Source: a virus. From it: a stretch of 64,000 nt of DNA. The stretch's first letter is position 1, and each line of letters opens with the position of its first letter. This document shows positions 6,809-43,135 of this stretch, in pieces. The notes beneath the pieces are model-generated. The model searched no databases and was not told where the DNA came from. It worked only from the letters and a program-made list of their open reading frames with translations. The stretch is taken from positions 1 through 64,000 of the IMG/VR virus record IMGVR_UViG_3300028920_001457. One strand, given 5' to 3'. The position numbers and the translations under genes are program-made.

Positions 6809-7544
6809 GTCTTTTTTTTATAAATCTCAAAAACTGTTCGTCTTGTGCTTGTTTTATCCATGGTGTAAAGGAAATGTGTGACACTATATTATTAACATCA
6901 ATGATTATTGGCTTCCCGTTTTCCATGAGAAAGTCCACATCCCCGTAGTCAAACCCAAAAAGCTGACAATTATAGTCAAATTCCTCCTGCATTTGCGGGG
7001 TAAATATTTCCCGCACATGTACCCACTCATGCGTAACATAGTCGTAATTATAGTCGGGATGTCCAAACAAAGTTCTTTTCCGTTGCTTCAGGATGTATTC
7101 TATCCCATCTGCATAATAAATACGATACTTAACAAATAGGTCGCGTTCCTTGTCCTCTATGTATCTTTGATATACATAACCCTTCCTGCGTGGTGCGGGA
7201 CATTTGATAAGACTATGTAGGGCATGTTGTCCTTGTTTTTCGGCTTTTTCCACACACACGCCCTCGTGTGTTTCGGGGTTAATGCTAATGTCATTAAAAA
7301 TATCATTGACTTTTTCTTTACTTATGTCCCAACAGCCGCGGTTTATGACATTGGGTTGTGTTAGGGTAAACATATCCGGCTGTATTTGTTTTTCACAGTA
7401 ACTCCAGAAAAAATGCAAGTCGTAATGTTCCTTGGGATTACTATGAAAGGGAATCCCATATTCCATACAAATACGATGCACCCTTGATTGTGGCACCGCT
7501 TTGTTTGGTTCTGGATAAAATAATATTGTTGGATACTTACTCAT
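6783..7544 (-). CDS. ATP-grasp-like protein (RimK-like fold)
   Basis: YVYQRYIE, KYRIYY, FDYGDVDFL, IIIDVNN. Confidence 0.55.
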   Translation of the reverse strand: MSKYPTILFYPEPNKAVPQSRVHRICMEYGIPFHSNPKEHYDLHFFWSYCEKQIQPDMFTLTQPNVINRGCWDISKEKVNDIFNDISINPETHEGVCVEKAEKQGQHALHSLIKCPAPRRKGYVYQRYIEDKERDLFVKYRIYYADGIEYILKQRKRTLFGHPDYNYDYVTHEWVHVREIFTPQMQEEFDYNCQLFGFDYGDVDFLMENGKPIIIDVNNIVSHISFTPWIKQAQDEQFLRFIKKRHDSASKVF

Positions 7545-34223: not shown

Positions 34224-34943
34224 ATGCCAAAATCAAAGACAAAAGACTGCCAGGGGATAAGTCTTAACAAAAGACGCAACAGGTGGGAGGTTACTATTAT
34301 CTATAAAAGGAAGCGCTATTATTTGGGTTCTTATCACAACAAAAAGATTGCACGGGCTGTATGGGAGTCCAAGAGAGATGAATTTTATGGGACAGAATCA
34401 GTACTCGACTTGCGTGGCGAGGTTTGGATTAAAATGGATAAACATAAGGGGGAATATTATGTTAGCAATAAGGGGCGAGTAAAAAACCTAAATTTTAAGG
34501 GCATGGGCTACGAAAGATTGTGTGGTATCATACCTTCGCATGGCTATAATCAAGTAAAGATAAATAGGGAGAGTTATTCTATACATCGGTTAGTTTTACA
34601 ATATTTTAAGGGAGAATCCGACCTTCCGGTTAATCACAAGGACGGAAATGGAACAAATAATATTTTAGAAAACCTAGAGTATGTTAGTCAGCGGATTAAT
34701 GGTTGCCATGGTTATTTTGTTGTGAACAAAAGAAATGTCCTAACGGGGGCACATTGGGATAAGTGGAATAATAGTTGGCGGTCTGAAATAAACATTAATG
34801 GTAGATTGGTATATTTAGGGTCTTTTAATACATCCATAGAGGCATGCGATAGATACTTACGGGCATTATTGGATTATGGCCTTCAGGATGATTATGATTA
34901 TATTGTCGAAATGATTGGACATAAACCCCATGTCGGAAATTAG
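34224..34943 (+). CDS. NUMOD4/HNH/AP2 homing endonuclease
   Basis: YYVSNKGRVK, IHRLV, VNHKDG...N...NLE, two AP2-like YLGS domains. Confidence 0.9.
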   Translation: MPKSKTKDCQGISLNKRRNRWEVTIIYKRKRYYLGSYHNKKIARAVWESKRDEFYGTESVLDLRGEVWIKMDKHKGEYYVSNKGRVKNLNFKGMGYERLCGIIPSHGYNQVKINRESYSIHRLVLQYFKGESDLPVNHKDGNGTNNILENLEYVSQRINGCHGYFVVNKRNVLTGAHWDKWNNSWRSEININGRLVYLGSFNTSIEACDRYLRALLDYGLQDDYDYIVEMIGHKPHVGN

Positions 34944-35023: not shown

Positions 35024-35560
35024 ATGTTAGCATTAATTCAAGCAACCCGGTGGGAAGATCGTAGGGATAGTTCATTCCGAGTTCACCCACTTGATTTACA
35101 CAAGGATTCGTATAGATATTTTCTTATCAATCCGAATCGAATTACAGAGATGAAGGTTGATGCCGCCACGGGGGGCAGCTACTTCAAATTTTCTGATAAT
35201 CACCGAGATCGCCGTGAAGGAAATTCCGTTGTATGGTGTAATAGCACTGTAAGTGAGCTACAAGTCGCGCACGACACGGCCTATGCGTCTAATTTTGTGA
35301 CACTTCCGTTCTTTCCGAAAAACGACCCAAACAGGACGCCCGTAGATACGACTATTGATGTTTCAGACATAGCCTATTTTTGTGAATACAACCCCGATCC
35401 AGATAATTATGTGTGGTTGGTGCACAATTCTAAGGCTTTTAAAAGAAAAGAGCAATTAGTCAACCTTAATCTTGATGAGGCAGAGGATATTGTAGAGACA
35501 GGTACTACAAGTACGACCACTACTTCTGAGGCAGAGACCACAACTACACAACACCTGTAA
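35024..35560 (+). CDS. Putative virion structural protein, tandem paralog A
   Basis: FLINPNRITEM vs FLLNTNRIIEM in the next gene; Thr-rich tail. Confidence 0.45.
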   Translation: MLALIQATRWEDRRDSSFRVHPLDLHKDSYRYFLINPNRITEMKVDAATGGSYFKFSDNHRDRREGNSVVWCNSTVSELQVAHDTAYASNFVTLPFFPKNDPNRTPVDTTIDVSDIAYFCEYNPDPDNYVWLVHNSKAFKRKEQLVNLNLDEAEDIVETGTTSTTTTSEAETTTTQHL

Positions 35561-35578
35561 CATTAAAAGCTATTTGAT

Positions 35579-36043
35579 ATGTTATTTGTTACGAGCGTAG
35601 ATATATGGACGAGCAAAAAGCCCGCTAAGTTACTTAAGGATGCTTGGGGGACTTATTTCCTGTTAAACACTAATAGGATAATTGAGATGAGGGTCAAGGG
35701 TACTGATGATACTAAGTTTTGGTATGCACAAGACCCTGACGATGCACGGGATAGCCCCGACTATCTGGAGTGTGGTGCTTCGAGGGCTGTCATCACGGCA
35801 TGGCATGATGCTACCGCAGACAGCAAGTTTGTTTCTTTGGACATATTTCCCAATATGGATATAACGCAAACGGCTGTGGCGACGACAATAGAATGGGCGG
35901 ACATTGCCTATATTTATCAGACCTACAGGGATGTGTTGGATAATGTAGCCCACATGACATATTATGCCAATGCTTTTCAGAGGGTTGAGTGTATTATAGA
36001 ACACAACCTGCTTGGGATATTGGCGTTACAGAACGCACATTAA
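35579..36043 (+). CDS. Putative virion structural protein, tandem paralog B
   Basis: Paralog of 35024-35560 (FV.L..FP...TTI...DIAY). Confidence 0.45.
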   Translation: MLFVTSVDIWTSKKPAKLLKDAWGTYFLLNTNRIIEMRVKGTDDTKFWYAQDPDDARDSPDYLECGASRAVITAWHDATADSKFVSLDIFPNMDITQTAVATTIEWADIAYIYQTYRDVLDNVAHMTYYANAFQRVECIIEHNLLGILALQNAH

Positions 36044-36073
36044 TACCATTACGAAATTCTATCATAAGAAACG

Positions 36074-36098
36074 ACCCGTCAGTGATGGCGGGTTTTTT
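36074..36098 (+). terminator. Intrinsic terminator
   Basis: ACCCGTCA-GTGA-TGGCGGGT plus TTTTT. Confidence 0.85.
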
Positions 36099-36185
36099 AT
36101 TGTGTATTGTAATATAAAATAATTGCGAAAATATTTGGTGGATTCAAAAACATGTTTTATATTTGCAGAAGTTCTTTGAAGGTAT

Positions 36186-36386
36186 AACCGACAAATGGGG
36201 TTCCTATAAAAATACAATTGGATGTAAATTACCCCCCGCCGGTTTTCGATACGAGACAAAGAGAGTTCCTATAGACCCTGTAAAGGGTCAGCCTCTTAAG
36301 CTGATATTTACTCTCCGTCTTTTTATTTTTAATAGGTAAAGGGTGTTCCTATACAAATCAATGCTTATGATAAATACACCCCACTT
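36186..36386 (+). ncRNA. Three tandem structured RNA units with invariant GTTCCTATA and anticodon-like hairpins
   Basis: Units 36186-36244, 36254-36320, 36334-36386; covarying stems GGGGT/ACCCC, GAGAGT/ACTCTC, GGGTGT/ACACCC; promoter TTTG...TATATTTG at 36134-36165. Confidence 0.7.
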
Positions 36387-36400
36387 TTAAAATAAATAAC

Positions 36401-38155
36401 ATGAATACTTTAAGGTTATTCAATGCGGTAATCGCAAAAGAATCTACAGAAAAACCCTTCGTTTCAGAAGAGGGATTTATCATTGAATCAAATGCTCTTT
36501 GGGCAAAAAATAGGATATTGGAATTCTATCTCAAGGAAAAGTTAAGTGGTAACGATCTTAACAAAACATTTCACAAATCATGGGCTAAAATTAAAAACAG
36601 CTCTCGGTTTGAATTGTTTGTTGAGCAGATATTTCATTATATTTCTACATACGGAAGTGATTTTCAGGACGAAATATATATTCCCGATGAAGTATTAAAT
36701 GTACCTGACGTAAAGTTGTCATACAAGGTTGTCCGTGCATATTCCAAGGAGGAAATGACGGATAAGTGTTTATCACTATTAAAATCAGGTATAGCATTAA
36801 AGGAGGAAACAATTAATGAGGTGTTATCGGTGCTTGTTGAAGAACTGGATTATTCCTTTACGGGAAATGAGAAAATCAGAAACAAAGAGGCTGTTATAAA
36901 AATAGCAGATATTTATGGCGTTCTGCCCAATGACACCATGGAGTTTTTCAGATATATTATATATCGGGCTACGGGGCAGTCTCTTCTTATTAAGAGCAAT
37001 GATTTGATAATGAAAATTAAAGAAGGGAATTATAATCCGTCGGTTCAGTTTAATAAATTCGGATTAGAAAAATTGGCAACGATATTTAATCGTTTTAAGC
37101 CATTATTCTTGGCATTTAAACCCAAGTGCGGAAAAACGATCAATAAAATTGCGAAGTTGTCTAAAAAGTTTCATAAACCTCTCGTTGTCAACCCCCTTAA
37201 TACCGCAACAAGTGAGCTGATGGGGGATGATGATAGACATTGGTTGGATAATGCTACGCCGTACGCTTTATTTAAAGTATTATCGGCATGTTATACGAGA
37301 GCGAGCGGCCAAGAGTCTTTCGTTTATCGGATTAGAAACGGGAAATCCTGGGTCAAGGAAAAGGAAACTATTTTGAGGGTGAACAAGTTAAATTTTGATT
37401 TCATTATAAAGTATCTGAAAGAAAGATATGATTTATCAGAAAAGAAATTCTTTTTGCCTGCTGATATAAAATATGCCCTTCCTACATCAGAAAAAATGTT
37501 TGTTGGCAATATTCCCACAGGAACGAGATTTTATGGCAGGAAGTTGGCGGTTGGGATATATTGGGAGGACGCATGGGGGGCAAGAGACCTCGATCTTTCG
37601 GGGTTGACGCTTTCAGGGCATAAGGTTGGTTGGAATGCAGAATATGATTATGGCGAAGGACAATTAATGTATTCTGGCGATATTACATCCGCCCCCAATG
37701 GTGCGGTAGAGTACCTGTATGCCAACAAAGGGCTTCGGGAATCGGTTTTAATAAAAAACAATGTTTATTCGGGAAGTAATGAATGTGATTATAAAATCGT
37801 TATTGGGTTGGGGGATAAGATTTCTGTGGATTATATGATGAACCCAAATAATCTTTTTATAGAAGTCAAATGTAAGTCCGTACAAAAACAGACCATATTG
37901 GGGATTCTTACTCCAAAGAAAATGGGGCAGTGCTTTGTATTGCTTAATTTTGGGGCGGGACATGTAAGGGTGTCGGGCAACAGTAAGATATCTAATATCG
38001 CCCTTAAGTCACTATATGAACAATGGAACAAACCGTTTTCATTTAATAAATTGATTAAATTATTGGGGGCGCAGATTGTTGAAAACAAAGAGGATGCAGA
38101 TTATGATTTCTCGTCTGATAATTTAGAAAAAGATTCTTTTATTAAGATATTTTAA
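36401..38155 (+). CDS. Large helical protein with C-terminal TerD-like domain
   Basis: GIYW...RDLDLSG...YSGDITSAPNGAVEYL is TerD-like; N-terminal LNKTFHKSW...EQIFHYISTYG helical region. Confidence 0.6.
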   Translation: MNTLRLFNAVIAKESTEKPFVSEEGFIIESNALWAKNRILEFYLKEKLSGNDLNKTFHKSWAKIKNSSRFELFVEQIFHYISTYGSDFQDEIYIPDEVLNVPDVKLSYKVVRAYSKEEMTDKCLSLLKSGIALKEETINEVLSVLVEELDYSFTGNEKIRNKEAVIKIADIYGVLPNDTMEFFRYIIYRATGQSLLIKSNDLIMKIKEGNYNPSVQFNKFGLEKLATIFNRFKPLFLAFKPKCGKTINKIAKLSKKFHKPLVVNPLNTATSELMGDDDRHWLDNATPYALFKVLSACYTRASGQESFVYRIRNGKSWVKEKETILRVNKLNFDFIIKYLKERYDLSEKKFFLPADIKYALPTSEKMFVGNIPTGTRFYGRKLAVGIYWEDAWGARDLDLSGLTLSGHKVGWNAEYDYGEGQLMYSGDITSAPNGAVEYLYANKGLRESVLIKNNVYSGSNECDYKIVIGLGDKISVDYMMNPNNLFIEVKCKSVQKQTILGILTPKKMGQCFVLLNFGAGHVRVSGNSKISNIALKSLYEQWNKPFSFNKLIKLLGAQIVENKEDADYDFSSDNLEKDSFIKIF

Positions 38156-38156
38156 T

Positions 38157-38164
38157 TATCTTTG
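38157..38164 (+). promoter_or_regulatory. Bacteroidota-type -7 promoter element of tRNA operon 1
   Basis: TATCTTTG four nt before the leader ATG (leaderless-like). Confidence 0.65.
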
Positions 38165-38168
38165 CACC

Positions 38169-38231
38169 ATGATTAGAATACAGCATATAGAGCAACCGCA
38201 ACAGCCAAGAGCCGATATTGGGTCTGGATAG
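38169..38231 (+). CDS. Attenuator leader peptide 1 (MIRIQHIEQPQQPRADIGSG)
   Basis: Codons ATA,CAG,CAT,ATA,GAG,CAA,CCG,CAA,CAG,CCA match downstream Ile(TAT), Gln, His, Glu, Pro tRNAs. Confidence 0.85.
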   Translation: MIRIQHIEQPQQPRADIGSG

Positions 38232-38256
38232 GTGTTCTATGTGTTTATAATACAGA

Positions 38257-38287
38257 GCCTTCTGGACTATTTCAGAGGGCTTTTTTT
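38257..38287 (+). terminator. Attenuator terminator 1
   Basis: GCCTTCTGGA-CTAT-TTCAGAGGGC plus T7, just before the first tRNA. Confidence 0.85.
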
Positions 38288-38291
38288 ATTT

Positions 38292-38364
38292 CGGAAGTAT
38301 GGTGTAATCAGGTAGCATACGTGCCTTGGGCGCACGGGGAGTAGTTCGAATCTAATATTTCCGA
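38292..38364 (+). tRNA. tRNA-Pro(TGG)
   Basis: CGTGC-CTTGGGC-GCACG; acceptor CGGAAGT/ATTTCCG. Confidence 0.9.
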
Positions 38365-38370
38365 CAATAT

Positions 38371-38442
38371 TGGCACATAGGTTAATGGTAAGACCTCTCG
38401 GCTTATACCCCAGCAGTCCAAGTTCGATTCTTGGTGTGCCAA
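38371..38442 (+). tRNA. tRNA-Ile(TAT)
   Basis: Loop CTTATAC; acceptor TGGCACA/TGTGCCA; T loop TTCGATT. Confidence 0.8.
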
Positions 38443-38443
38443 C

Positions 38444-38518
38444 GGTGGTTATGGTGTAATGGCAACATAACTGTTTGTGGAGCAGTGGTTATCAGTTCGA
38501 GCCTGATTAATCACCCCA
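38444..38518 (+). tRNA. tRNA-His(GTG)
   Basis: G-1:C73, loop TTGTGGA, encoded CCA. Confidence 0.9.
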
Positions 38519-38519
38519 T

Positions 38520-38590
38520 GCTCGGTTCTTCTAACGGCAGGAAATCGGGTTTTCACCCCGGCAATAGCGGTTCAATTCCGCTACCGAGTA
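38520..38590 (+). tRNA. tRNA-Glu(TTC)
   Basis: TCGGG-TTTTCAC-CCCGG; T arm AGCGG-TTCAATT-CCGCT. Confidence 0.9.
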
Positions 38591-38596
38591 CGATAA

Positions 38597-38667
38597 TGCC
38601 TTGTGGTGTAATAGTAACACATAACACTTTGGATGTTATGTTTTCGGTGCGAATCCGAACAAGGCAT
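38597..38667 (+). tRNA. tRNA-Gln(TTG)
   Basis: TAACA-CTTTGGA-TGTTA; acceptor TGCCTTG/CAAGGCA. Confidence 0.9.
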
Positions 38668-38676
38668 CAAAATAAA

Positions 38677-38707
38677 TTTGGAAATTTAAAAATATGTATT
38701 ATCTTTG
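38677..38707 (+). promoter_or_regulatory. Bacteroidota-type promoter of tRNA operon 2
   Basis: TTTG (38677) then 19 nt then TATCTTTG (38700). Confidence 0.75.
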
Positions 38708-38726
38708 TACCAATAAAAAACAAAAA

Positions 38727-38801
38727 ATGCAGTTAGTCAGAAAGAATATGGTGAATATTGACCGCACAGGCGCAACCTTGCGAGGGGGTATTCCTATATG
38801 A
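38727..38801 (+). CDS. Attenuator leader peptide 2 (MQLVRKNMVNIDRTGATLRGGIPI)
   Basis: Core V-R-K-N-M-V-N-I-D-R-T-G-A-T covers all 10 amino acids of the 11 downstream tRNAs. Confidence 0.85.
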   Translation: MQLVRKNMVNIDRTGATLRGGIPI

Positions 38802-38822
38802 TTTCTGTAAGAAACAACAGGG

Positions 38823-38851
38823 ATGCCCTCAAGAGATTGGGGGCATTTTTT
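38823..38851 (+). terminator. Attenuator terminator 2
   Basis: ATGCCCTCAA-GAGA-TTGGGGGCAT plus T5. Confidence 0.85.
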
Positions 38852-38853
38852 AT

Positions 38854-38924
38854 TGGCTCATAGTTTAATAGTAGAACGCATCTCTGATACGGATGTAGCC
38901 TAAGTGCGATTCTTAGTGAGCCAA
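38854..38924 (+). tRNA. tRNA-Ile(GAT)
   Basis: CATCT-CTGATAC-GGATG; acceptor TGGCTCA/TGAGCCA. Confidence 0.85.
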
Positions 38925-38928
38925 CAAT

Positions 38929-39001
38929 AGCGGGTTGTGTAGAAATAGTATCTCGTCAGTCTCATAAGCTGAAGTTATGGGTGCAATCCCCATACCCGCT
39001 A
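38929..39001 (+). tRNA. tRNA-Met(CAT)
   Basis: TCAGT-CTCATAA-GCTGA; acceptor AGCGGGT/ACCCGCT. Confidence 0.85.
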
Positions 39002-39005
39002 CAAT

Positions 39006-39077
39006 GGGAATATGGTGAAATGGGTATCACGATGGACTGTTAATCCTTCGTTATAGGTTCAAGTCCTATTGTTCCCG
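39006..39077 (+). tRNA. tRNA-Asn(GTT)
   Basis: Loop CTGTTAA; G73. Confidence 0.9.
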
Positions 39078-39081
39078 CAAA

Positions 39082-39153
39082 GTCCTTGTGGTGTAATGGA
39101 GAGCACAAGTGTCTTCTAAGCATTTAGTCAGGGTTCGACTCCTTGCGGGGACA
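39082..39153 (+). tRNA. tRNA-Arg(TCT)
   Basis: Loop CTTCTAA; T loop TTCGACT. Confidence 0.9.
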
Positions 39154-39159
39154 CTAAAT

Positions 39160-39234
39160 ACCCTTGTAGGCTCCTTGGTGGAGAACCAGATTGTCACTCT
39201 GGTAAAACAGACGGATCGTAACCGTTCAGGGGTG
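39160..39234 (+). tRNA. tRNA-Asp(GTC)
   Basis: CCAGA-TTGTCAC-TCTGG; G73; atypical T loop ATCGTAA. Confidence 0.8.
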
Positions 39235-39239
39235 CAAGC

Positions 39240-39312
39240 GGGTTGCAATGTACCAAGGCTGGCGAGAGACCCTTGCAAGGTTTTTGGCTCGGTTCGATTC
39301 CGAGGCGATCCA
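39240..39312 (+). tRNA. tRNA-Ala(TGC)
   Basis: Loop CTTGCAA; G3:U70 identity pair present. Confidence 0.9.
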
Positions 39313-39315
39313 CAA

Positions 39316-39387
39316 GCAGGATAGGTGTTGATGGTTGCATAAGAGCCTTCCAAGCTCAAGGAGTGAATTCGAATTTCACATCCTGCT
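39316..39387 (+). tRNA. tRNA-Gly(TCC)
   Basis: Loop CTTCCAA; acceptor GCAGGAT/ATCCTGC; U73. Confidence 0.9.
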
Positions 39388-39391
39388 CAAT

Positions 39392-39466
39392 GGGCGATTA
39401 GTTTAATGGACAGAATATATCGCTACGGACGATATGGTGAGGATTCGATTTCTTCATCGCCCACCA
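39392..39466 (+). tRNA. tRNA-Arg(ACG)
   Basis: TATCG-CTACGGA-CGATA; encoded CCA. Confidence 0.9.
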
Positions 39467-39468
39467 AT

Positions 39469-39540
39469 GACCCTATAATTTCAACAGTAGAATCCCATCC
39501 TTTTAAGATGGTTGTCTTGGGGCGGAACCAAGTGGGGTCA
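39469..39540 (+). tRNA. tRNA-Lys(TTT)
   Basis: CCATC-CTTTTAA-GATGG; atypical T loop GGCGGAA. Confidence 0.8.
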
Positions 39541-39544
39541 CAAA

Positions 39545-39616
39545 GGCAGGTTAGTTTAAGCGGCAAAACACGTGATTTGTAACCATGAGATACGGCTTCG
39601 ATCGCTGTACTTGCCT
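39545..39616 (+). tRNA. tRNA-Thr(TGT)
   Basis: Loop TTTGTAA; acceptor GGCAGGT/ACTTGCC. Confidence 0.85.
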
Positions 39617-39621
39617 CAAAT

Positions 39622-39694
39622 AGCCCGATAGTGTAGCGGTTAAGCACGGCACCCTTACAAGATGTCAGCCACAGTTCGAGTCTGTGTTGGGCTA
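39622..39694 (+). tRNA. tRNA-Val(TAC)
   Basis: Loop CTTACAA; T loop TTCGAGT. Confidence 0.85.
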
Positions 39695-39712
39695 CAAAAA
39701 AACATAAATATA

Positions 39713-39743
39713 TTTGTTTATTTAAAAATTATTATTAATTTTG
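39713..39743 (+). promoter_or_regulatory. Bacteroidota-type promoter of tRNA operon 3
   Basis: TTTG (39713) then 19 nt then TAATTTTG (39736). Confidence 0.75.
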
Positions 39744-39749
39744 CAGATT

Positions 39750-39812
39750 ATGAAAAATCTATGGTGTTCATATAGTTTATTTTCACTCTTGCTCTTGAGG
39801 CGAGGCGGATAA
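39750..39812 (+). CDS. Attenuator leader peptide 3 (MKNLWCSYSLFSLLLLRRGG)
   Basis: CTA,TGG,TGT,TCA,TAT,AGT,TTA,TTT,TCA,CTC,TTG: at least one codon for each of the 9 downstream tRNAs. Confidence 0.9.
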   Translation: MKNLWCSYSLFSLLLLRRGG

Positions 39813-39838
39813 ACTATATCTACCAAAGATATATTGAA

Positions 39839-39864
39839 GCCTCGCTTATAAAGCGGGGTTTTTT
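39839..39864 (+). terminator. Attenuator terminator 3
   Basis: GCCTCGCTT-ATA-AAGCGGGGT plus T5. Confidence 0.85.
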
Positions 39865-39869
39865 GTTAT

Positions 39870-39942
39870 GGGGAATTGACGTAAATGGCAACCGTATTGG
39901 GTTTAAGCCCCAAGTTTGAGAGTTCGAATCTCTTGTTCCCCA
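39870..39942 (+). tRNA. tRNA-Leu(TAA), short variable loop
   Basis: TTGGG-TTTAAGC-CCCAA; A73. Confidence 0.85.
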
Positions 39943-39945
39943 CAT

Positions 39946-40018
39946 GGTCGAGTGACGTAACAGGCAACCGTATCCGTCTCAAAAGCGGAGTTTATGGGTT
40001 CGAATCCCATCTTGACCA
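39946..40018 (+). tRNA. tRNA-Leu(CAA), short variable loop
   Basis: TCCGT-CTCAAAA-GCGGA; A73. Confidence 0.85.
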
Positions 40019-40022
40019 CAAA

Positions 40023-40095
40023 GCTCAGGTAGTAAATTGGCAAAGCAACTTGACTTAGGATCAAGGATTTGTGAGTTCGAGTCTCACCCTGAGTA
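40023..40095 (+). tRNA. tRNA-Leu(TAG), short variable loop
   Basis: CTTGA-CTTAGGA-TCAAG; A73. Confidence 0.85.
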
Positions 40096-40099
40096 CTAT

Positions 40100-40191
40100 G
40101 GATGGCTAAACCACAGTAGGTCTAAGTGGGACGGTCTTGAAAACCGTAGGTCGCTCAACACGGCGTGTAAGTTCGAGTCTTACGCCATCCG
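40100..40191 (+). tRNA. tRNA-Ser(TGA)
   Basis: ACGGT-CTTGAAA-ACCGT; long variable arm; G73. Confidence 0.9.
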
Positions 40192-40195
40192 CGAA

Positions 40196-40278
40196 GGGAC
40201 GGCTTGGCATTAGTGAGCCTAAGAGTCTGTAAAACTCCCGCTTCGGCTGTGGTGGTGCAAATCCATCTCGTCCCACCA
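40196..40278 (+). tRNA. tRNA-Tyr(GTA)
   Basis: Loop CTGTAAA; variable arm; encoded CCA. Confidence 0.9.
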
Positions 40279-40279
40279 A

Positions 40280-40362
40280 GGAGAGTAAATCATCAAGGCG
40301 ATGACTACGCCCGCTAAGCGATAGGTTCTGAAAGGAATGGGACTCGGGTTCTCTGCTCTCCG
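40280..40362 (+). tRNA. tRNA-Ser(GCT), divergent
   Basis: Acceptor GGAGAGT/GCTCTCC, loop CCGCTAA (C33), long variable arm, weak T arm. Confidence 0.65.
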
Positions 40363-40367
40363 CAAAC

Positions 40368-40437
40368 AGGGATACCCATTGGAGTGGTAAGCGGTCTCCA
40401 AAACCGTGATTTGAATGTTCGACCCGTTCTATCCCTG
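40368..40437 (+). tRNA. tRNA-Trp(CCA)
   Basis: GCGGT-CTCCAAA-ACCGT; G73. Confidence 0.85.
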
Positions 40438-40441
40438 CTAT

Positions 40442-40518
40442 GGAGAAGTAGCTGAGTCGGTTCAAGCGTCGGACTGAAAATCCGAAGTAGATGAGTTCAA
40501 TTCTCATATTCTCCACCA
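40442..40518 (+). tRNA. tRNA-Phe(GAA)
   Basis: TCGGA-CTGAAAA-TCCGA; encoded CCA. Confidence 0.9.
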
Positions 40519-40519
40519 A

Positions 40520-40586
40520 GACCCAATAAAAGCACAAAACGTGGTTTGCAAAACCATGGGGGACGGTGCGATTCCGTCTTGGGTCT
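40520..40586 (+). tRNA. tRNA-Cys(GCA), D-arm reduced
   Basis: GTGGT-TTGCAAA-ACCAT; U73; D region is an unpaired A-rich 14-mer. Confidence 0.75.
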
Positions 40587-40624
40587 CTAATATATTTCTT
40601 ACCTTTGCATAAAACAAGAATAGT

Positions 40625-43135
40625 ATGGGCAAGAAACAACCGCCAAAGGCAGAAAAGAAACTTTCCTTTGAAACAGACTTTGAGTTACAGGAAGAAACCC
40701 GCCTAAAGCTACGTCCCGAAGATATAGTAAAGATAAAAGAGGAAGCAGGCAAACTACCCGATGACTTTAATCCTTATGGGAACTATATGCCCGAAAAACT
40801 CAGATTTCTGGGCGACGAACCACCCCCAAACACCAAAAGATTTGTTGGAATAAATGTGGATGATGATGATCTGACACCGATTTATGTAAGCACACCCGCC
40901 CCCCCGCCGAAAGAATTAATAGATTATCACGACCTACCACCCACAGAACAATATTGGCGGCGTATGGAAGTACCCAAACGACTGCATAAATTAGAAGAGA
41001 GAGCCTTCCTTGCGCTATTTGAGGTAGAAAGAAGAAACAGGCAGGAAACAGTACAGGGCTATAGGATTTATCAGAAATATTGGGAAATATTAGAAGCAGA
41101 ACAGGATAAATATGCGGAAGAGATAGCATGGATAAAAAAGATGTGGTGGTACAGGACTAACGGCTATTGGTTCTATAATGATGGCGAACCCGCCTATTGT
41201 ACTGGTGAATATTTTGATTATCTTAACTTTTGGTATATAAAGGATGGTGAGACACATGTGGAATTCAGGGAAGAGGATCGGGTTATTTCTATTTTTTCAC
41301 ATTATCTAAGAACAACAACCGAGTCTTTCGCCAACATAAACCCCACCACGGGTAGGGCAATGAAAAATAAAGATGGCAAGTATGATATGGTGGATGTCGG
41401 TGCAAGAGTATTTTTCGGTGACATGAAACCGAAATTCAGGAGGTGTGGGGAAACGCAATGGGCGTGTCACGGGATATGGCTTGGTGCGAGTACGACACCC
41501 GCCGCTTATGGTACTATCATATCCATGGATGGTGAAAACGCACAAAAGCACTATTACAAAAAGCTAATACCCGCATGGAATAAATATCCTATGTTTCTCA
41601 AGCCAATATGGATGGGTACGAAACGTCCCACAAATATTAAGTTGATAGAACCACCCAATGTATTTAATCCCAATATGGAGGGATTGGGTTCTAATATTGA
41701 TTATACAGAAAGCTCCGGGGTGTCGAAGAATGATGGTGATACATTACATTTTTGTCTCTCAGACGAGGAGGGAAAAAGTAAGTCACCTATAGCCGAAAGG
41801 TGGAGTGTAAATAAGATAGCTATGTCAACGGGTGGTGGGTCTAACATCCTTAATAACGCTTATGCGTGGCATCCGAGTACCGTTGAGGATATTGGTGACG
41901 GTGCGCCAGAGTATTTTAAAATGTGGCAACTATCTAATTTTTATGAAAGGATACCCATACTTGGGCAGACACACTCGGGGTTGGCAAGGATTTTCATTCC
42001 CGCATATAAGAAACTCGAGGGTTTTATTGACAGGTGGGGTAAGTCGGTATCGGATACACCAACGAAACGACAGATAAAATACAGTCCACGAGCCAAATTT
42101 GCACTCACGGGCAAGGGTGCAAGGGAAACACTACAGGCAGTTCTTGATTCCTTGTTAGCCAAGGGGACACCCGAGGCACTTGAGGCATACAGGTCAAGGC
42201 GCAGAAAGTTCCCGATGAAGTCGGCAGATGCATGGTTGGGGAGTTCGGGTAATGTGGGTTTCAACCTTGAGATAATAGACAAGCGTATAGAGGAACTCAA
42301 TAGGATAAAGTCTTTTGGCAAGATGAATTATAAAACCGGGTATTTTTACAGGGAAAACAATCATCCACAGGGCGATGTGTTGTGGCGTACAGACCTCGAC
42401 AACCCCAAGTTTATCATGTCCAAGGACTTACCACAGGAATTAACCAACAGAAGGAGTGTGGTCGACTTTTACGATGGTCTCAGGCAACAGTGGAAGAAAT
42501 CATGGACACCAGTAGACGGATATAAATTCACCCTTGGGGTGGATATGTTCAGAAATCTATCGCCCGTAGAGGCAAAACAGGCATCTAAATTTGGGGGATT
42601 TACCAATAACTCCCGCCAGAGTAATGGTGGTATAGCTATTCTATGGGAATATGATTCAGAATATCCCGATAGTGGCAGGTGTGTATTGTCGTATAATTAT
42701 CGTCCATCGACACAAAAAGAGTTTATGGATGATGTTCTTATGGCGGCACAGTATTTCGGGGCAATGATATATCCCGAACAAAACGTAGAGCGGTTTATTG
42801 AGTATATGTTTGATGAGGGCTATGGCGGGTATGGGCTTTATGATATTGATTTGGTAACTGGTAATATAAAGAAACTACCAGGGCGATATACTACAAAAGA
42901 AAGCCTGCAAGAGATGTTCAGGGAATATAAGGACTATATAGAACGTAAGGGTGCGGAAGAAGAACACGATGATTTGCTAATGCAGATGAAAAACATACGT
43001 GGGGTAGAAGATGCTACACGTAATGACCTTTTCGTTGCTTTCGGTATGTGTCTTCTTGGAAGTAAGTCCCGTGTCAGGGAAATTATAAAGCGTGAAGACT
43101 TTGGTGAGGCAATAGCAATAGACGATATTTTTTAA
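40625..43135 (+). CDS. Terminase large subunit (crAss-like)
   Basis: Walker A-like KPKFRRCGET, Walker B-like LSDEEGK, nuclease LGVD, E.NV and D..VAFG motifs; sits before portal. Confidence 0.85.
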   Translation: MGKKQPPKAEKKLSFETDFELQEETRLKLRPEDIVKIKEEAGKLPDDFNPYGNYMPEKLRFLGDEPPPNTKRFVGINVDDDDLTPIYVSTPAPPPKELIDYHDLPPTEQYWRRMEVPKRLHKLEERAFLALFEVERRNRQETVQGYRIYQKYWEILEAEQDKYAEEIAWIKKMWWYRTNGYWFYNDGEPAYCTGEYFDYLNFWYIKDGETHVEFREEDRVISIFSHYLRTTTESFANINPTTGRAMKNKDGKYDMVDVGARVFFGDMKPKFRRCGETQWACHGIWLGASTTPAAYGTIISMDGENAQKHYYKKLIPAWNKYPMFLKPIWMGTKRPTNIKLIEPPNVFNPNMEGLGSNIDYTESSGVSKNDGDTLHFCLSDEEGKSKSPIAERWSVNKIAMSTGGGSNILNNAYAWHPSTVEDIGDGAPEYFKMWQLSNFYERIPILGQTHSGLARIFIPAYKKLEGFIDRWGKSVSDTPTKRQIKYSPRAKFALTGKGARETLQAVLDSLLAKGTPEALEAYRSRRRKFPMKSADAWLGSSGNVGFNLEIIDKRIEELNRIKSFGKMNYKTGYFYRENNHPQGDVLWRTDLDNPKFIMSKDLPQELTNRRSVVDFYDGLRQQWKKSWTPVDGYKFTLGVDMFRNLSPVEAKQASKFGGFTNNSRQSNGGIAILWEYDSEYPDSGRCVLSYNYRPSTQKEFMDDVLMAAQYFGAMIYPEQNVERFIEYMFDEGYGGYGLYDIDLVTGNIKKLPGRYTTKESLQEMFREYKDYIERKGAEEEHDDLLMQMKNIRGVEDATRNDLFVAFGMCLLGSKSRVREIIKREDFGEAIAIDDIF

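What the first reader, a model, noticed from the sequence alone, without database searches (positions are those of the whole stretch)
36134..38155. Three covarying RNA repeats with anticodon-loop mimics upstream of a TerD-domain protein, adjacent to the tRNA array
Seen: three units share outer stem, AAA, inner stem, invariant TCCTATA, variable hairpin(s), AT-rich linker and closing stem. Inner stems covary (GGGGT/ACCCC, GAGAGT/ACTCTC, GGGTGT/ACACCC). Unit 2 carries TCAGC-CTCTTAA-GCTGA, a perfect tRNA-Lys(CTT) anticodon arm, and GACCC-TGTAAA-GGGTC, which is Tyr-like. Unit 1 has ACA-ATTGGA-TGT, resembling this phage's Gln arm. Unit 3 has ATCA-ATGCTTA-TGAT, weakly Ser(GCT)-like. Established: Lys and Tyr tRNAs are known defence-nuclease targets, and Ro60/Y RNA complexes use a conserved protein-binding stem plus a tRNA-like module. 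Inference: the 584-aa protein binds these RNAs, which act as decoys or cleavage sensors for anticodon nucleases, forming a second arm of the tRNA-rescue module.
Basis: partly seen in the sequence, partly recalled or inferred. Interest (0 to 1): 0.85.

Follow-up and report, generated by a model that had tools for sequence, protein, structure and literature searches.

The report
Small-RNA array with TerD-fold protein partner
Three small folded RNAs that share one conserved "handle" sit in front of an uncharacterised phage protein; this RNA-protein pair recurs in phage tRNA gene clusters and next to RNA-ligase genes in bacteria, so it is probably an undescribed RNA-protein particle for tRNA damage control, analogous to Ro60/Y RNA but built from unrelated parts.

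Summary
Window 36187-36388 holds three RNA units, each with an outer stem, an AAA/C internal loop, a covarying 6-bp inner stem, GUUCCUAUA and a variable arm. A covariance model finds exactly these three in 64 kb (E 1e-16 to 3e-8). They lie between a Bacteroidota-type promoter (36134-36165) and the 584-aa ORF (36401-38155).

The ORF belongs to a large unnamed family (at least 1370 clusters at 50% identity). AlphaFold gives it an orphan helical N-domain and a TerD-fold C-domain. I found no link to Ro60/TROVE (hhalign probability 0.1%; no fold match).

RNA and protein co-occur in both search directions:
- 176 model hits in 77 protein loci, all on the gene's strand.
- In 151 Bacteroidota genomes, strong RNA hits only in the two that carry the gene.

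Context: RtcB ligase in 51 of 59 bacterial loci, and tRNA arrays in phages.

In relatives the variable arm is a tRNA-elbow mimic with sub-threshold YrlA hits. Anticodon-like loops (YU-NNN-AA) are enriched (p 8e-7). Unit 2's hairpin is 15/17 identical to the anticodon arm of this phage's own tRNA(CAU).

Best reading: a handle-plus-cargo RNP analogous to Ro60/Y RNA. Binding, expression and the decoy function are untested. This scan reached the same reading earlier on other genomes. I found no publication describing it.

The parts
36073..36094 (+). Intrinsic terminator of the upstream gene. It marks the 5' boundary of the transcription unit.
   Evidence: Stem of 9 pairs plus a T run.
36134..36165 (+). 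Bacteroidota-type promoter, TTTG-N20-TATATTTG (-33 and -7 elements). It is the only promoter-like site ahead of the RNAs and the ORF.
   Evidence: Pattern TTTGN{17,23}TANNTTTG gives 18 sites in the window against 4.1 expected; one is here, and two more head the tRNA operons. The same TATATTTG and leader precede the array in L001.
36187..36243 (+). RNA unit 1. Handle: outer stem, AAA/C internal loop, inner stem UGGGGU/ACCCCC, GUUCCUAUA. Cargo: A/U-rich arm with the small hairpin UACA-AUUGGA-UGUA (UUGGA type).
   Evidence: R1 hit of 42.5 bits, E 2.9e-11; this unit was not in the seed. Sequence read.
36252..36322 (+). RNA unit 2. Handle: AGAC/GUCU outer stem and GAGAGU/ACUCUC inner stem. Cargo: two hairpins, GACCC-UGUAAA-GGGUC (36274-36289) and UCAGC-CUCUUAA-GCUGA (36288-36304). 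The second is shaped like an anticodon stem-loop.
   Evidence: R1 hit of 33.5 bits, E 3e-8; not in the seed. The MFE fold shows both hairpins. The second hairpin is 15/17 identical to the anticodon arm of the phage tRNA(CAU) at 38929. Orthologous units in L011, L061, L050 and S-CRM01 carry a T arm plus a capped hairpin here.
36332..36388 (+). RNA unit 3. Handle: AUAGGU/ACUUUU outer stem and GGGUGU/ACACCC inner stem. Cargo includes AUCA-AUGCUUA-UGAU. The unit ends 13 nt before the start codon. The AUAGGU...CACUUAU type of last unit is conserved across flavobacterial and phage loci.
   Evidence: R1 hit of 58.8 bits, E 1e-16; this unit was in the seed. Orthologues are in alignment A3.
36401..37441 (+). 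N-terminal, mostly helical domain of the 584-aa protein (aa 1-347). No family and no solved structural relative were found. It has a conserved basic stretch (F229 R231 K233 K240 K255 H258) and invariant N161, E163, N248, H258 and R312. It is the candidate RNA-binding part.
   Evidence: AF2 model with pLDDT 93.7 and pTM 0.92. Conservation. No hit in Pfam, PHROGs, PADLOC, NCBIfam or PDB sequences. Best fold match is Z 5.9 over 66 residues.
37532..38014 (+). TerD-fold beta-sandwich domain (about aa 378-538). The TerD-type acidic motifs are retained (DLDLS D396/D398, SGD G426/D427, E437).
   Evidence: Foldseek probability 1.00 to 2kxt, 3ibz and 2qng. VIA Z 10.6 (rmsd 3.0, 142 aligned) to 2qz7_B and Z 9.5 to 2kxt. 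Invariant columns.
36401..38155 (+). The whole ORF of 584 aa, a member of a large unnamed family.
   Evidence: At least 2780 hits. 1370 clusters at 50% identity, nearly all full length.
38254..38283 (+). Intrinsic terminator after the ORF. It marks the 3' boundary of the unit, just before the first tRNA.
   Evidence: 13-pair stem plus a T run.
38292..40518 (+). tRNA array of 22 genes by ARAGORN at lowered threshold. This is genomic context shared with the homologues in cyanophages S-CRM01 and S-CBWM1.

Best explanation
One promoter (36134-36165) transcribes three small structured RNAs and then the 584-aa protein.

Each RNA has a constant 'handle': an outer stem, an AAA/C internal loop, a 6-bp inner stem that always closes with G-C and U-A, and then UUCCU(AUA). 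Each also has a variable 'cargo' arm. The protein has an orphan helical N-domain and a TerD-fold C-domain. It most likely binds the handle, so each RNA forms a small RNP. This is inferred from co-occurrence, strand and covariation. It has not been shown.

The cargo mimics parts of tRNA. In this phage these are anticodon-stem-loop-like hairpins. In relatives they include a whole tRNA 'elbow' (T arm, capped acceptor stem, D loop), sometimes with the RNA circularly permuted.

The particle would therefore present tRNA-like surfaces to tRNA-recognising enzymes. It could recruit or gate repair and turnover factors, as Ro60/Y RNA does, or it could occupy anticodon nucleases. In bacteria it works with the RtcB ligase encoded in the same operon. 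In phages it serves the phage's own tRNA array during conflict over tRNA integrity.

My confidence falls step by step: about 0.9 that RNA and protein are a functional pair, about 0.7 that they bind directly, and about 0.4 for the tRNA-damage function.
For: Structure and specificity:
- In the seed alignment of 66 units, 94.8% of cells pair against 69.8% in shuffles. There are 242 double-change cells against 71 (0 of 500 shuffles reach this), and sliding the partner collapses the signal.
- The same holds for 120 distinct model hits: 93.9% against 69.9%, and 424 against 137.
- About 25 G-U pairs at one outer-stem position fit only the + strand read as RNA.
- The only window hits are the three units.

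Co-occurrence:
- A strict pattern search finds units in 63 of 69 protein-first viral loci (28-72% identity), 136 on the gene strand and 3 opposite.
- R1 gives 176 hits at E<=1e-3 in 77 loci, all on the gene's strand.
- The RNA-first scan of 151 Bacteroidota genomes gives strong hits only in G001 and G030, both directly beside the protein gene.
- Units occur upstream, downstream, or kilobases away inside tRNA arrays (S-CBWM1, Phass-1, L214, L231). This argues for trans-acting RNAs.

tRNA mimicry:
- Permuted tRNA-like units hit Rfam YrlA at 33-41 bits.
- A tRNA carrying the handle in place of its anticodon loop occurs in L014 and L001.
- Non-canonical T arms lie beside handles in roughly 50 of 103 distinct loci (58 had a T arm near a handle, a few of them inside called tRNAs).
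- YU-NNN-AA loops make up 10 of 66 hairpins against 195 of 10017 in background, Fisher 7.6e-7.
- 15 of 106 variable arms are at least 13/17 identical to an anticodon arm, against 2.25 in shuffles.
- Unit 2's hairpin is 15/17 identical to the arm of the phage's own tRNA(CAU).

Context:
- RtcB is present in 51 of 59 bacterial loci, 46 of them upstream on the same strand. A WYL regulator is present in 38 of 59.
- 24 of 72 viral loci carry tRNAs, and 16 carry three or more.
- The homologue lies inside the tRNA arrays of S-CRM01 and S-CBWM1.

Handle variants agree within a locus more often than between loci (40% against 17.5%).
Against: - There are no expression, processing or binding data. No RNA sequencing run holds this DNA.
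- In the window the RNAs lie in the 5' leader of the gene's own mRNA, so a cis role cannot be excluded.
- The protein has no recognisable RNA-binding domain.
- This phage record (77% complete) encodes no RNA ligase, and no RtcB lies within 2.5 kb in any of the 72 viral loci.
- The window's own units lack the tRNA-elbow module.
- Most variable arms in the family are unstructured.
- The bacterial loci are mostly Chryseobacterium, so the RtcB count is not phylogenetically independent.
- Units for the seed alignment were chosen by pairing, which inflates the percentage paired but not the number of pair types.
Confidence: 0.62

Rival explanations
1. Decoy or cleavage sensor. The anticodon-like hairpins act as baits for host anticodon nucleases, for example Lys-, Ser- or Tyr-specific enzymes. 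The protein either stabilises the baits or reports their cleavage. This is a special case of the best explanation, not an alternative to the RNP itself.
For: - YU-NNN-AA loops are enriched in variable arms.
- The recurring 'anticodons' are Lys UUU/CUU, Ser GCU and Asn GUU.
- Unit 2's hairpin nearly copies the anticodon arm of the phage's own tRNA(CAU).
- The locus sits at a phage tRNA array.
Against: - Only about 10% of units carry such hairpins, and many loci have none.
- The commonest structured cargo in relatives is the tRNA elbow, which has the handle where the anticodon loop would be.
- Bacterial chromosomes carry the same module next to RtcB. That fits repair better than anti-defence.
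- No nuclease assay is available.
Confidence: 0.2
2. Cis-regulatory leader. The units are operators in the 5' UTR. The protein, or another factor, binds them to autoregulate translation or transcription read-through of the gene. There would be no trans function.
For: - In the window the units lie between the only promoter and the ORF, and unit 3 ends 13 nt before the ATG.
- In flavobacterial loci the units are followed by U-rich tracts.
- The last unit type is conserved next to the start codon.
Against: - In S-CRM01, L214, L215, L224, L225, L231 and Phass-1, units also lie downstream of the gene. In S-CBWM1 one lies 2.5 kb away among tRNAs.
- The cyanophage units have no U tracts.
- Some units are embedded in tRNA-like RNAs with free acceptor ends. 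That implies RNase P/Z-type processing into separate molecules.
- One to eight diverged but orthologous unit types per locus is unlike any known protein-binding leader.
Confidence: 0.12
3. Type III toxin-antitoxin-like module. The protein is a toxic RNase or other effector. It is held inactive by the tandem RNAs encoded just upstream, as in ToxIN.
For: The layout matches: a promoter, a tandem array of structured RNA units and then a protein gene on the same strand. The module is sporadic and looks mobile, present in about 1% of sampled Bacteroidota genomes.
Against: - The units are diverged paralogues with conserved orthologues across genomes, not near-identical repeats.
- No terminator separates the array from the gene in the window.
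- The protein is three times the size of ToxN/AbiQ-type toxins, has no nuclease-like match, and has no PADLOC hit.
- The tRNA-mimic cargo and the RtcB linkage are not explained by this model.
Confidence: 0.06

Closest known systems
Ro60 (Rsr) with bacterial Y RNAs (YrlA/YrlB, Yrn1), for example the Salmonella rsr-yrlBA-rtcBA operon and phage-encoded Rsr/YrlA (Chen et al. 2014, PMC4201824; Hughes et al. 2020, PMC7790460)
   Same: - A protein of about 520-600 aa is encoded next to one or several small RNAs.
- The RNAs combine a conserved stem (the protein-binding stem in Y RNAs; inferred for the handle here) with a variable module.
- That module is often a tRNA mimic with a T arm, capped acceptor stem and D loop. 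Relatives' units hit Rfam YrlA at 33-41 bits.
- There is operon linkage to the RtcB RNA ligase in bacteria.
- The pair also occurs in phages.
- The protein is a helical N-domain followed by a metal-binding-type C-domain.
   Different: - No TROVE domain: Pfam is silent, hhalign against Bacteroidota TROVE proteins gives probability 0.1%, and there is no fold match.
- The C-domain has a TerD fold, not vWA.
- The RNA handle is AAA/C loop + NNNNGU + UUCCU, not the GNCGAAN0-1G / GGUCCGA motif of Y RNAs (PMC4201824).
- There are up to 8 units per locus.
- Many units carry no tRNA-like module at all, including all three in this window.
- True TROVE genes coexist with this family in at least two genomes, G001 and G274. 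The two are therefore not simple replacements for each other.
TerD family (tellurite-resistance Ca2+-binding beta-sandwich; PDB 2kxt, 2qz7, 3ibz)
   Same: The C-terminal 160 residues adopt the TerD fold and keep the acidic DxDxS / GD / E positions.
   Different: The Pfam TerD model does not score. TerD proteins are single-domain proteins of about 190 aa found in ter operons. They have no known RNA partner and no 350-aa helical N-domain.
Type III toxin-antitoxin systems (ToxIN, AbiQ/antiQ, CptIN)
   Same: A tandem array of structured RNA units lies directly upstream of a protein gene that is thought to bind them. The RNA-protein pairing is inferred from synteny.
   Different: The units are diverged and carry distinct cargo. 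There is no evidence for an endoribonuclease fold or for toxicity. The module is linked to RtcB and to tRNA arrays.
tRNA-like structures and permuted tRNA genes
   Same: Some relatives' units contain genuine T arm, acceptor and D arm elements in permuted order. Others are tRNAs with the handle in place of the anticodon loop (Rfam tRNA 48.7 bits in L014).
   Different: They have no anticodon loop and so are not decoding tRNAs. The three units in the window carry no T arm and do not hit the tRNA model.

Membership tests
Ro60/Rsr - Y RNA ribonucleoprotein | The protein contains a TROVE domain (sequence level) | tested here: not met
   Pfam has no TROVE hit at E<=0.1. A family profile of 79 sequences against 8 Bacteroidota TROVE proteins gives hhalign probability 0.11%. 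A PDB sequence profile search finds nothing.
Ro60/Rsr - Y RNA ribonucleoprotein | The N-terminal domain folds as a TROVE HEAT-repeat ring | tested here: inconclusive
   No Ro60 chain appears among the Foldseek or VIA-wide matches, for either the whole model or the domain-only model. The best N-domain Z is 5.9 over 66 residues.
Ro60/Rsr - Y RNA ribonucleoprotein | C-terminal vWA domain with a MIDAS site | tested here: not met
   The C-domain matches the TerD fold instead (Z 10.6 and 9.5; Foldseek probability 1.00).
Ro60/Rsr - Y RNA ribonucleoprotein | The RNA carries the Ro-binding motif (GNCGAAN0-1G in bacteria, GGUCCGA in vertebrates) in the terminal stem | tested here: not met
   The handle consensus is auaGGCAAAgGaaGUUCCUAUA...UACuuCcCGCCuau. 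The Y RNA motif is as described in PMC4201824.
Ro60/Rsr - Y RNA ribonucleoprotein | At least one partner RNA has a tRNA-like domain (T arm, closed acceptor stem, D arm) | tested here: inconclusive
   This is met in relatives. YrlA model hits score 40.8, 35.9 and 33.1 bits, below the gathering score of 69, and non-canonical T arms lie beside handles in roughly 50 of 103 distinct loci (58 had a T arm near a handle, a few inside called tRNAs). It is not met by the window's three units.
Ro60/Rsr - Y RNA ribonucleoprotein | Operon linkage with the RtcB RNA ligase | tested here: inconclusive
   51 of 59 bacterial homologue loci have RtcB within 3 kb. The window's phage record has no RtcB or Rnl gene, and no RtcB lies within 2.5 kb in any of the 72 viral loci.
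TerD family (Pfam PF02342) | TerD beta-sandwich fold | tested here: met
   VIA Z 10.6 (rmsd 3.0, 142 aligned) to 2qz7_B and Z 9.5 to 2kxt. Foldseek probability 1.00.
TerD family (Pfam PF02342) | Scores above the Pfam TerD threshold | tested here: not met
   There is no TerD hit at E<=0.1. None of the 120 listed homologues has a precomputed Pfam domain.
Type III toxin-antitoxin (ToxIN-like) | Near-identical tandem RNA repeats followed by a terminator and then the toxin gene | tested here: not met
   The units share only the handle; their 19-nt cores are 79-84% identical and their arms are unrelated. No terminator is predicted between 36388 and 36401.
Type III toxin-antitoxin (ToxIN-like) | The protein is a ToxN/AbiQ-type endoribonuclease | tested here: inconclusive
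   There is no PADLOC, Pfam or fold match to such toxins. Absence of a match is not proof.
Any Rfam family | A match to a curated covariance model | tested here: not met
   No Rfam 15 hit at E<=10 falls inside 36044-36400.

The most novel reading that the evidence does not exclude
This is a previously undescribed, widespread class of ribonucleoprotein, found in phages of Bacteroidota and cyanobacteria and in Flavobacteriia chromosomes. One orphan-fold/TerD protein is loaded, through a universal RNA handle, with interchangeable cargo RNAs. Each cargo imitates a different part of tRNA: the elbow, or the anticodon stem-loops of Lys, Ser, Asn and Tyr. Together these form a programmable panel of tRNA mimics that senses, decoys or channels repair of nuclease-damaged tRNAs. 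It arose independently of Ro60/Y RNA.
Probability: 0.35. Interest if true: 0.9.

Novelty: new variant of a known kind. Interest (0 to 1): 0.8.

Why it matters
Ro60/Y RNA is so far the only known protein-small-RNA particle linked to RNA repair operons and tRNA mimicry. What it actually does in bacteria is still unclear.

Here is a second solution, with no detectable relationship to Ro60 in sequence or fold. It has a sharply defined RNA handle and modular tRNA-mimic cargo. The family has more than a thousand protein clusters, and it sits in exactly the two contexts where tRNA integrity is contested: RtcB operons and phage tRNA arrays.

The pair gives an independent system in which to ask what such particles do. 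It defines a new RNA family and a new protein fold to characterise. It also offers a possible new layer in the phage-host conflict over tRNA cleavage.

The handle-plus-cargo design is easy to test. Compensatory mutants, pull-downs and nuclease assays are all feasible in culturable Chryseobacterium and Flavobacterium strains and in the cultured cyanophages S-CRM01 and S-CBWM1.

Tried and rejected
- Rfam 15 scan of 35500-40800 at E<=10 found nothing in the RNA region.
- Pfam, PHROGs, PADLOC and NCBIfam had no family for the protein. A PDB sequence profile search gave only noise. The ESM Atlas returned only unnamed viral or 'TerD family' clusters at scores of 0.86 or below.
- Fold searches of the N-domain gave no match above Z 5.9, and those covered only a 60-70 residue helical sub-bundle. 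The domain-only model was weaker (pLDDT 78).
- The motif-first scan of IMG/VR with an 18-nt pattern (14 specified bases) gave mostly chance hits; only 2 of 80 listed loci hold the protein. I dropped it as a co-occurrence test and replaced it with covariance-model searches.
- A swapped-arm control for covariation was confounded by shared arms between orthologous units. I replaced it with the count of structure pairs.
- Sequencing runs: no RNA holder is listed, and only the probable source metagenome holds the stretch.
- Burroughs & Aravind 2016 (NAR, RNA repair systems) is not held, so I could not check whether it mentions this family.
- Literature searches for TerD+RtcB, YrlA+phage, and tRNA-like+WYL found no description of this pair.
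- The weak R1 hit in genome G062 is not a unit.
- A DNA-level reading (iterons or recombinase sites; the core resembles the Flp FRT half-site GAAGTTCCTATAC from memory) was rejected. Hits are strictly strand-specific, contain G-U pairs and show compensatory changes.
- T-loop mimicry by UUCCUAUA was rejected because the cyanophage variants (UUCCUGU, UUCCUUU) lack the required A.
Full report
**1. What is in the window.**

The intergenic stretch 36044-36400 starts with the terminator of the upstream gene (36073-36094). A Bacteroidota-type promoter follows, TTTG-N20-TATATTTG, at 36134-36165. It is one of 18 such sites in the window against 4.1 expected by chance.

Three tandem units follow. Each has the same order of parts:
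- an outer stem of 4-6 bp;
- AAA;
- a 6-nt inner-stem arm ending in GU;
- UCCUAUA;
- a variable arm;
- an A/U-rich linker;
- ACNNNN;
- a single C;
- the 3' arm of the outer stem.

The spacing of 3 nt on one side and 1 nt on the other between the two helices is constant. The ORF starts 13 nt after unit 3 (36401-38155, 584 aa). A terminator (38254-38283) and the tRNA array (38292 onward; 22 tRNAs at lowered ARAGORN threshold) come next. No second promoter-like site lies between the units and the ORF. RNAs and protein are therefore one transcription unit.

**2. Is it more than chance?**

Exact GTTCCTATA occurs only at the three units, plus one unrelated minus-strand site. AAANNNNGTTCCTATA occurs three times in the whole 77-kb phage record and never in the reversed control.

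I aligned 66 short units, 65 of them from other loci (A3), and built covariance model R1. A filter-free scan of both strands of the window returned the three units at E 1e-16, 2.9e-11 and 3e-8. The next hit was at E 0.26. Units 1 and 2 were not in the seed.

**3. RNA structure.**

| Alignment | Cells paired | Shuffled | Double-change cells | Shuffled |
|---|---|---|---|---|
| A3, 66 seed units | 94.8% | 69.8% | 242 | 71 (0 of 500 shuffles reach it) |
| A4, 120 distinct R1 hits | 93.9% | 69.9% | 424 | 137 |

- On A3 the covariation score is 0.786. It falls to 0.10-0.18 when the partner column is slid by 1-3 positions.
- Four inner-stem positions each show 3-5 pair types. The two closing pairs (G-C and U-A) are invariant.
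- Caveat: the seed units were chosen by pairing, and A4 is fitted to the model. The percentage paired is therefore inflated. The number of pair types and the slide control are less affected.
- About 25 G-U pairs at one outer-stem position, and strict strand specificity, point to RNA rather than DNA.

**4. The protein.**

Pfam, PHROGs, PADLOC and NCBIfam give nothing. The family is large:
- at least 2780 hits among 90%-identity clusters;
- 1370 clusters at 50% identity, 890 of them at E<=1e-30, nearly all full length at 580-640 aa.

Named members come from Flavobacteriia chromosomes (Chryseobacterium, Aquimarina, Winogradskyella, Tenacibaculum, Kordia). Others come from phages, including cyanophages S-CRM01 and S-CBWM1 and the gut phage Phass-1. 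Only 4 of 401 sampled Bacteroidota genomes carry it, so it is an accessory gene.

AlphaFold with 79 homologues gives pLDDT 93.7 and pTM 0.92.
- Residues about 378-538 adopt the TerD fold. Foldseek gives probability 1.00 to 2kxt, 3ibz and 2qng. VIA gives Z 10.6, rmsd 3.0, 142 aligned to 2qz7_B. The TerD-type acidic positions are invariant.
- Residues 1-347 are mostly helical with two small sheets. I found no convincing relative. The best Z is 5.9 over 66 residues for the whole model and 5.5 for a domain-only model.
- A profile-profile comparison with eight Bacteroidota TROVE proteins gives probability 0.1%.

The proposed TROVE-like ring gets no support: sequence profiles exclude a detectable TROVE relationship, and the fold searches found no Ro60 match, which by the tools' own rule does not exclude the fold.

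**5. RNA and protein travel together.**

- Protein-first: a strict pattern search finds units in 63 of 69 IMG/VR loci (28-72% identity), 136 on the gene's strand and 3 opposite. Four of the six without units are truncated.
- R1 finds 176 hits at E<=1e-3 in 77 loci, every one on the gene's strand.
- Two loci that match only the TerD part (L190, L191) have none.
- Chryseobacterium and other flavobacterial loci have 3-4 units directly upstream.
- RNA-first: in 151 Bacteroidota genomes, strong hits (E 1e-11 to 1e-16) occur only in G001 and G030. These are the two sampled genomes that carry the gene, and the hits abut it. One weak hit elsewhere is not a unit.
- Units are usually upstream. They can also lie just downstream (S-CRM01, L214, L215, L224, L225, L231), 1.3 kb downstream (Phass-1), or 2.5 kb away among tRNAs (S-CBWM1).
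- The bases after UUCCU agree within a locus more often than between loci (40% against 17.5%). This fits recognition by the cognate protein, although gene conversion among units could do the same.

**6. What the variable arms are.**

(a) tRNA-elbow mimics. In many relatives the arm holds a T arm (GGUUCGANUCC), an acceptor-like stem capped by a tetraloop, and a D arm or a UGGUU stretch, in permuted order. These units hit Rfam YrlA at 40.8, 35.9 and 33.1 bits, below the gathering score of 69.

(b) Permuted chimeras. In L001 and in most Chryseobacterium loci the first RNA is a tRNA-like molecule with open acceptor ends. The handle, circularly permuted and capped by a loop, replaces the anticodon loop (Rfam tRNA 48.7 bits). 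The same two-dimensional architecture with the ends in different places is hard to explain except as RNA structure. Non-canonical T arms lie beside handles in roughly 50 of 103 distinct loci (58 had a T arm near a handle, a few of them inside called tRNAs).

(c) Anticodon-stem-loop-like hairpins.
- Among 7-nt-loop hairpins in variable arms, 10 of 66 read YU-NNN-AA against 195 of 10017 in background hairpins from the same loci (Fisher 7.6e-7).
- 15 of 106 arms are at least 13/17 identical to some anticodon arm, against 2.25 in shuffles. Two of the top-listed matches are T arms, not anticodon arms.
- The recurring 'anticodons' are UUU/CUU (Lys), GCU (Ser) and GUU (Asn). A Tyr-type loop, CUGUAAA, occurs in L001.

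(d) Plain arms. Most arms are unstructured and A/U-rich, with no more hairpins than shuffled sequence. Some carry UUGGA or AUGAA.

The window's units:
- Unit 1 is of the UUGGA type. Its small hairpin resembles the phage tRNA-Gln arm but has a 6-nt loop.
- Unit 2 has two hairpins. In L011, L061, L050 and S-CRM01 the orthologous unit carries a T arm plus a capped hairpin at this place.
- Unit 2's second hairpin, UCAGC-CUCUUAA-GCUGA, has a canonical anticodon-loop shape. It is 15/17 identical to the arm of the phage's own tRNA(CAU) at 38929.
- Unit 3's AUGCUUA loop resembles the recurrent GCU loops but has U at position 37.
- None of the three has a T arm.

**7. Genomic context.**

*Bacteria.* RtcB is present in 51 of 59 loci. 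In 46 it lies upstream on the same strand, giving the order RtcB, RNAs, protein. A WYL-WCX regulator is present in 38 of 59. A T4 Rnl1-type ligase, an RNase T-like exonuclease or an AAA_13 ATPase appear occasionally. These loci are mostly Chryseobacterium, so the counts are not independent. Aquimarina and Kordia show the same theme with different layouts.

*Phages.* No RtcB lies within 2.5 kb. However, 24 of 72 loci hold tRNAs and 16 hold three or more. The S-CRM01 and S-CBWM1 homologues lie inside their tRNA arrays.

*This phage.* The record is 77% complete and encodes no RtcB or Rnl ligase.

*Coexistence.* True TROVE genes occur in 20 of 301 Bacteroidota genomes. These include G001 and G274, which also carry this family. 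The two systems therefore coexist.

**8. Interpretation.**

Shown:
- a structured, strand-specific RNA family with a constant handle and modular cargo;
- obligate synteny with one protein family across distant phages and bacteria;
- tRNA-mimic cargo;
- linkage to RtcB or to tRNA arrays.

Inferred: the protein binds the handle; the RNAs are processed to discrete species; and the particle acts on tRNA damage, repair or defence.

The closest analogue is Ro60/Y RNA (rsr-yrlBA-rtcBA; PMC4201824, PMC7790460). Membership fails on the TROVE domain at sequence level (the fold test was inconclusive), on the vWA domain, and on the Ro-binding motif.

A purely cis-regulatory role is disfavoured by the downstream and distant units and by the tRNA-ended chimeras. 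The start-proximal last unit could still autoregulate in addition. A type III TA-like reading is the least likely.

**9. Novelty.**

Neither the RNA (Rfam 15) nor the protein (Pfam, PHROGs, PADLOC, NCBIfam) belongs to a curated family. Full-text searches found no description of the pair. One key review was not available to me.

Earlier follow-ups in this scan reached the same Ro60/Y-like reading on other genomes. I saw those notes only after forming mine.

New in this report:
- the RNA-first genome test;
- the hhalign test against TROVE proteins;
- the coexistence of TROVE genes with this family;
- the family-wide enrichment of anticodon-loop-like cargo;
- the near-copy of the phage's own tRNA(CAU) arm in unit 2.

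Noticed in passing
window 38929-39002: A tRNA with anticodon CAU (Met or Ile2) is missed by ARAGORN at default settings but is called at -ps90 and by Rfam (34.5 bits). Its anticodon arm, TCAGT-CTCATAA-GCTGA, differs at only 2 of 17 positions from the second hairpin of RNA unit 2.
   Followed up: partly
L014 5183-7453 (Chryseobacterium aahli locus): A 757-aa AAA_13 protein (E 1e-113) lies directly downstream of the homologue. From memory, this is the family that includes PrrC/RloC-type anticodon-nuclease ATPase modules. It is present in only 2 of 59 bacterial loci.
   Followed up: partly
G001:C2:18920-19648 and G274:C59:249782-250522: Genomes that carry the TerD-fold protein and its RNAs also encode a bona fide TROVE (Ro60/Rsr) protein elsewhere. 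The two systems coexist and do not replace each other.
   Followed up: partly
L006 6987-7453 (Phage Phass-1, code-15 clade, human gut): Six R1 hits lie 1.3-1.7 kb downstream of a distant homologue (30% identity over 72% of the query). They partly overlap an annotated hypothetical CDS (6995-7294), which may therefore be a mis-call.
   Followed up: no
window 38677-38707 and 39713-39743: Two more TTTG-N-TAnnTTTG promoter-like sites head the second and third tRNA blocks.
   Followed up: no
window 34224-34943: An HNH endonuclease with NUMOD4 and AP2 domains (homing-endonuclease type) lies about 1.2 kb upstream of the RNA array.
   Followed up: no
L086 (IMGVR_UViG_3300030012_004533) 285-1949: This viral contig has a 32%-identical homologue. 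A loose pattern search found about five candidate units on each strand. It was not checked with the covariance model.
   Followed up: no
L005 6180-6356 (S-CBWM1): Two annotated 'pseudo-tRNAs' lie just downstream of the homologue. They carry no handle motif.
   Followed up: no
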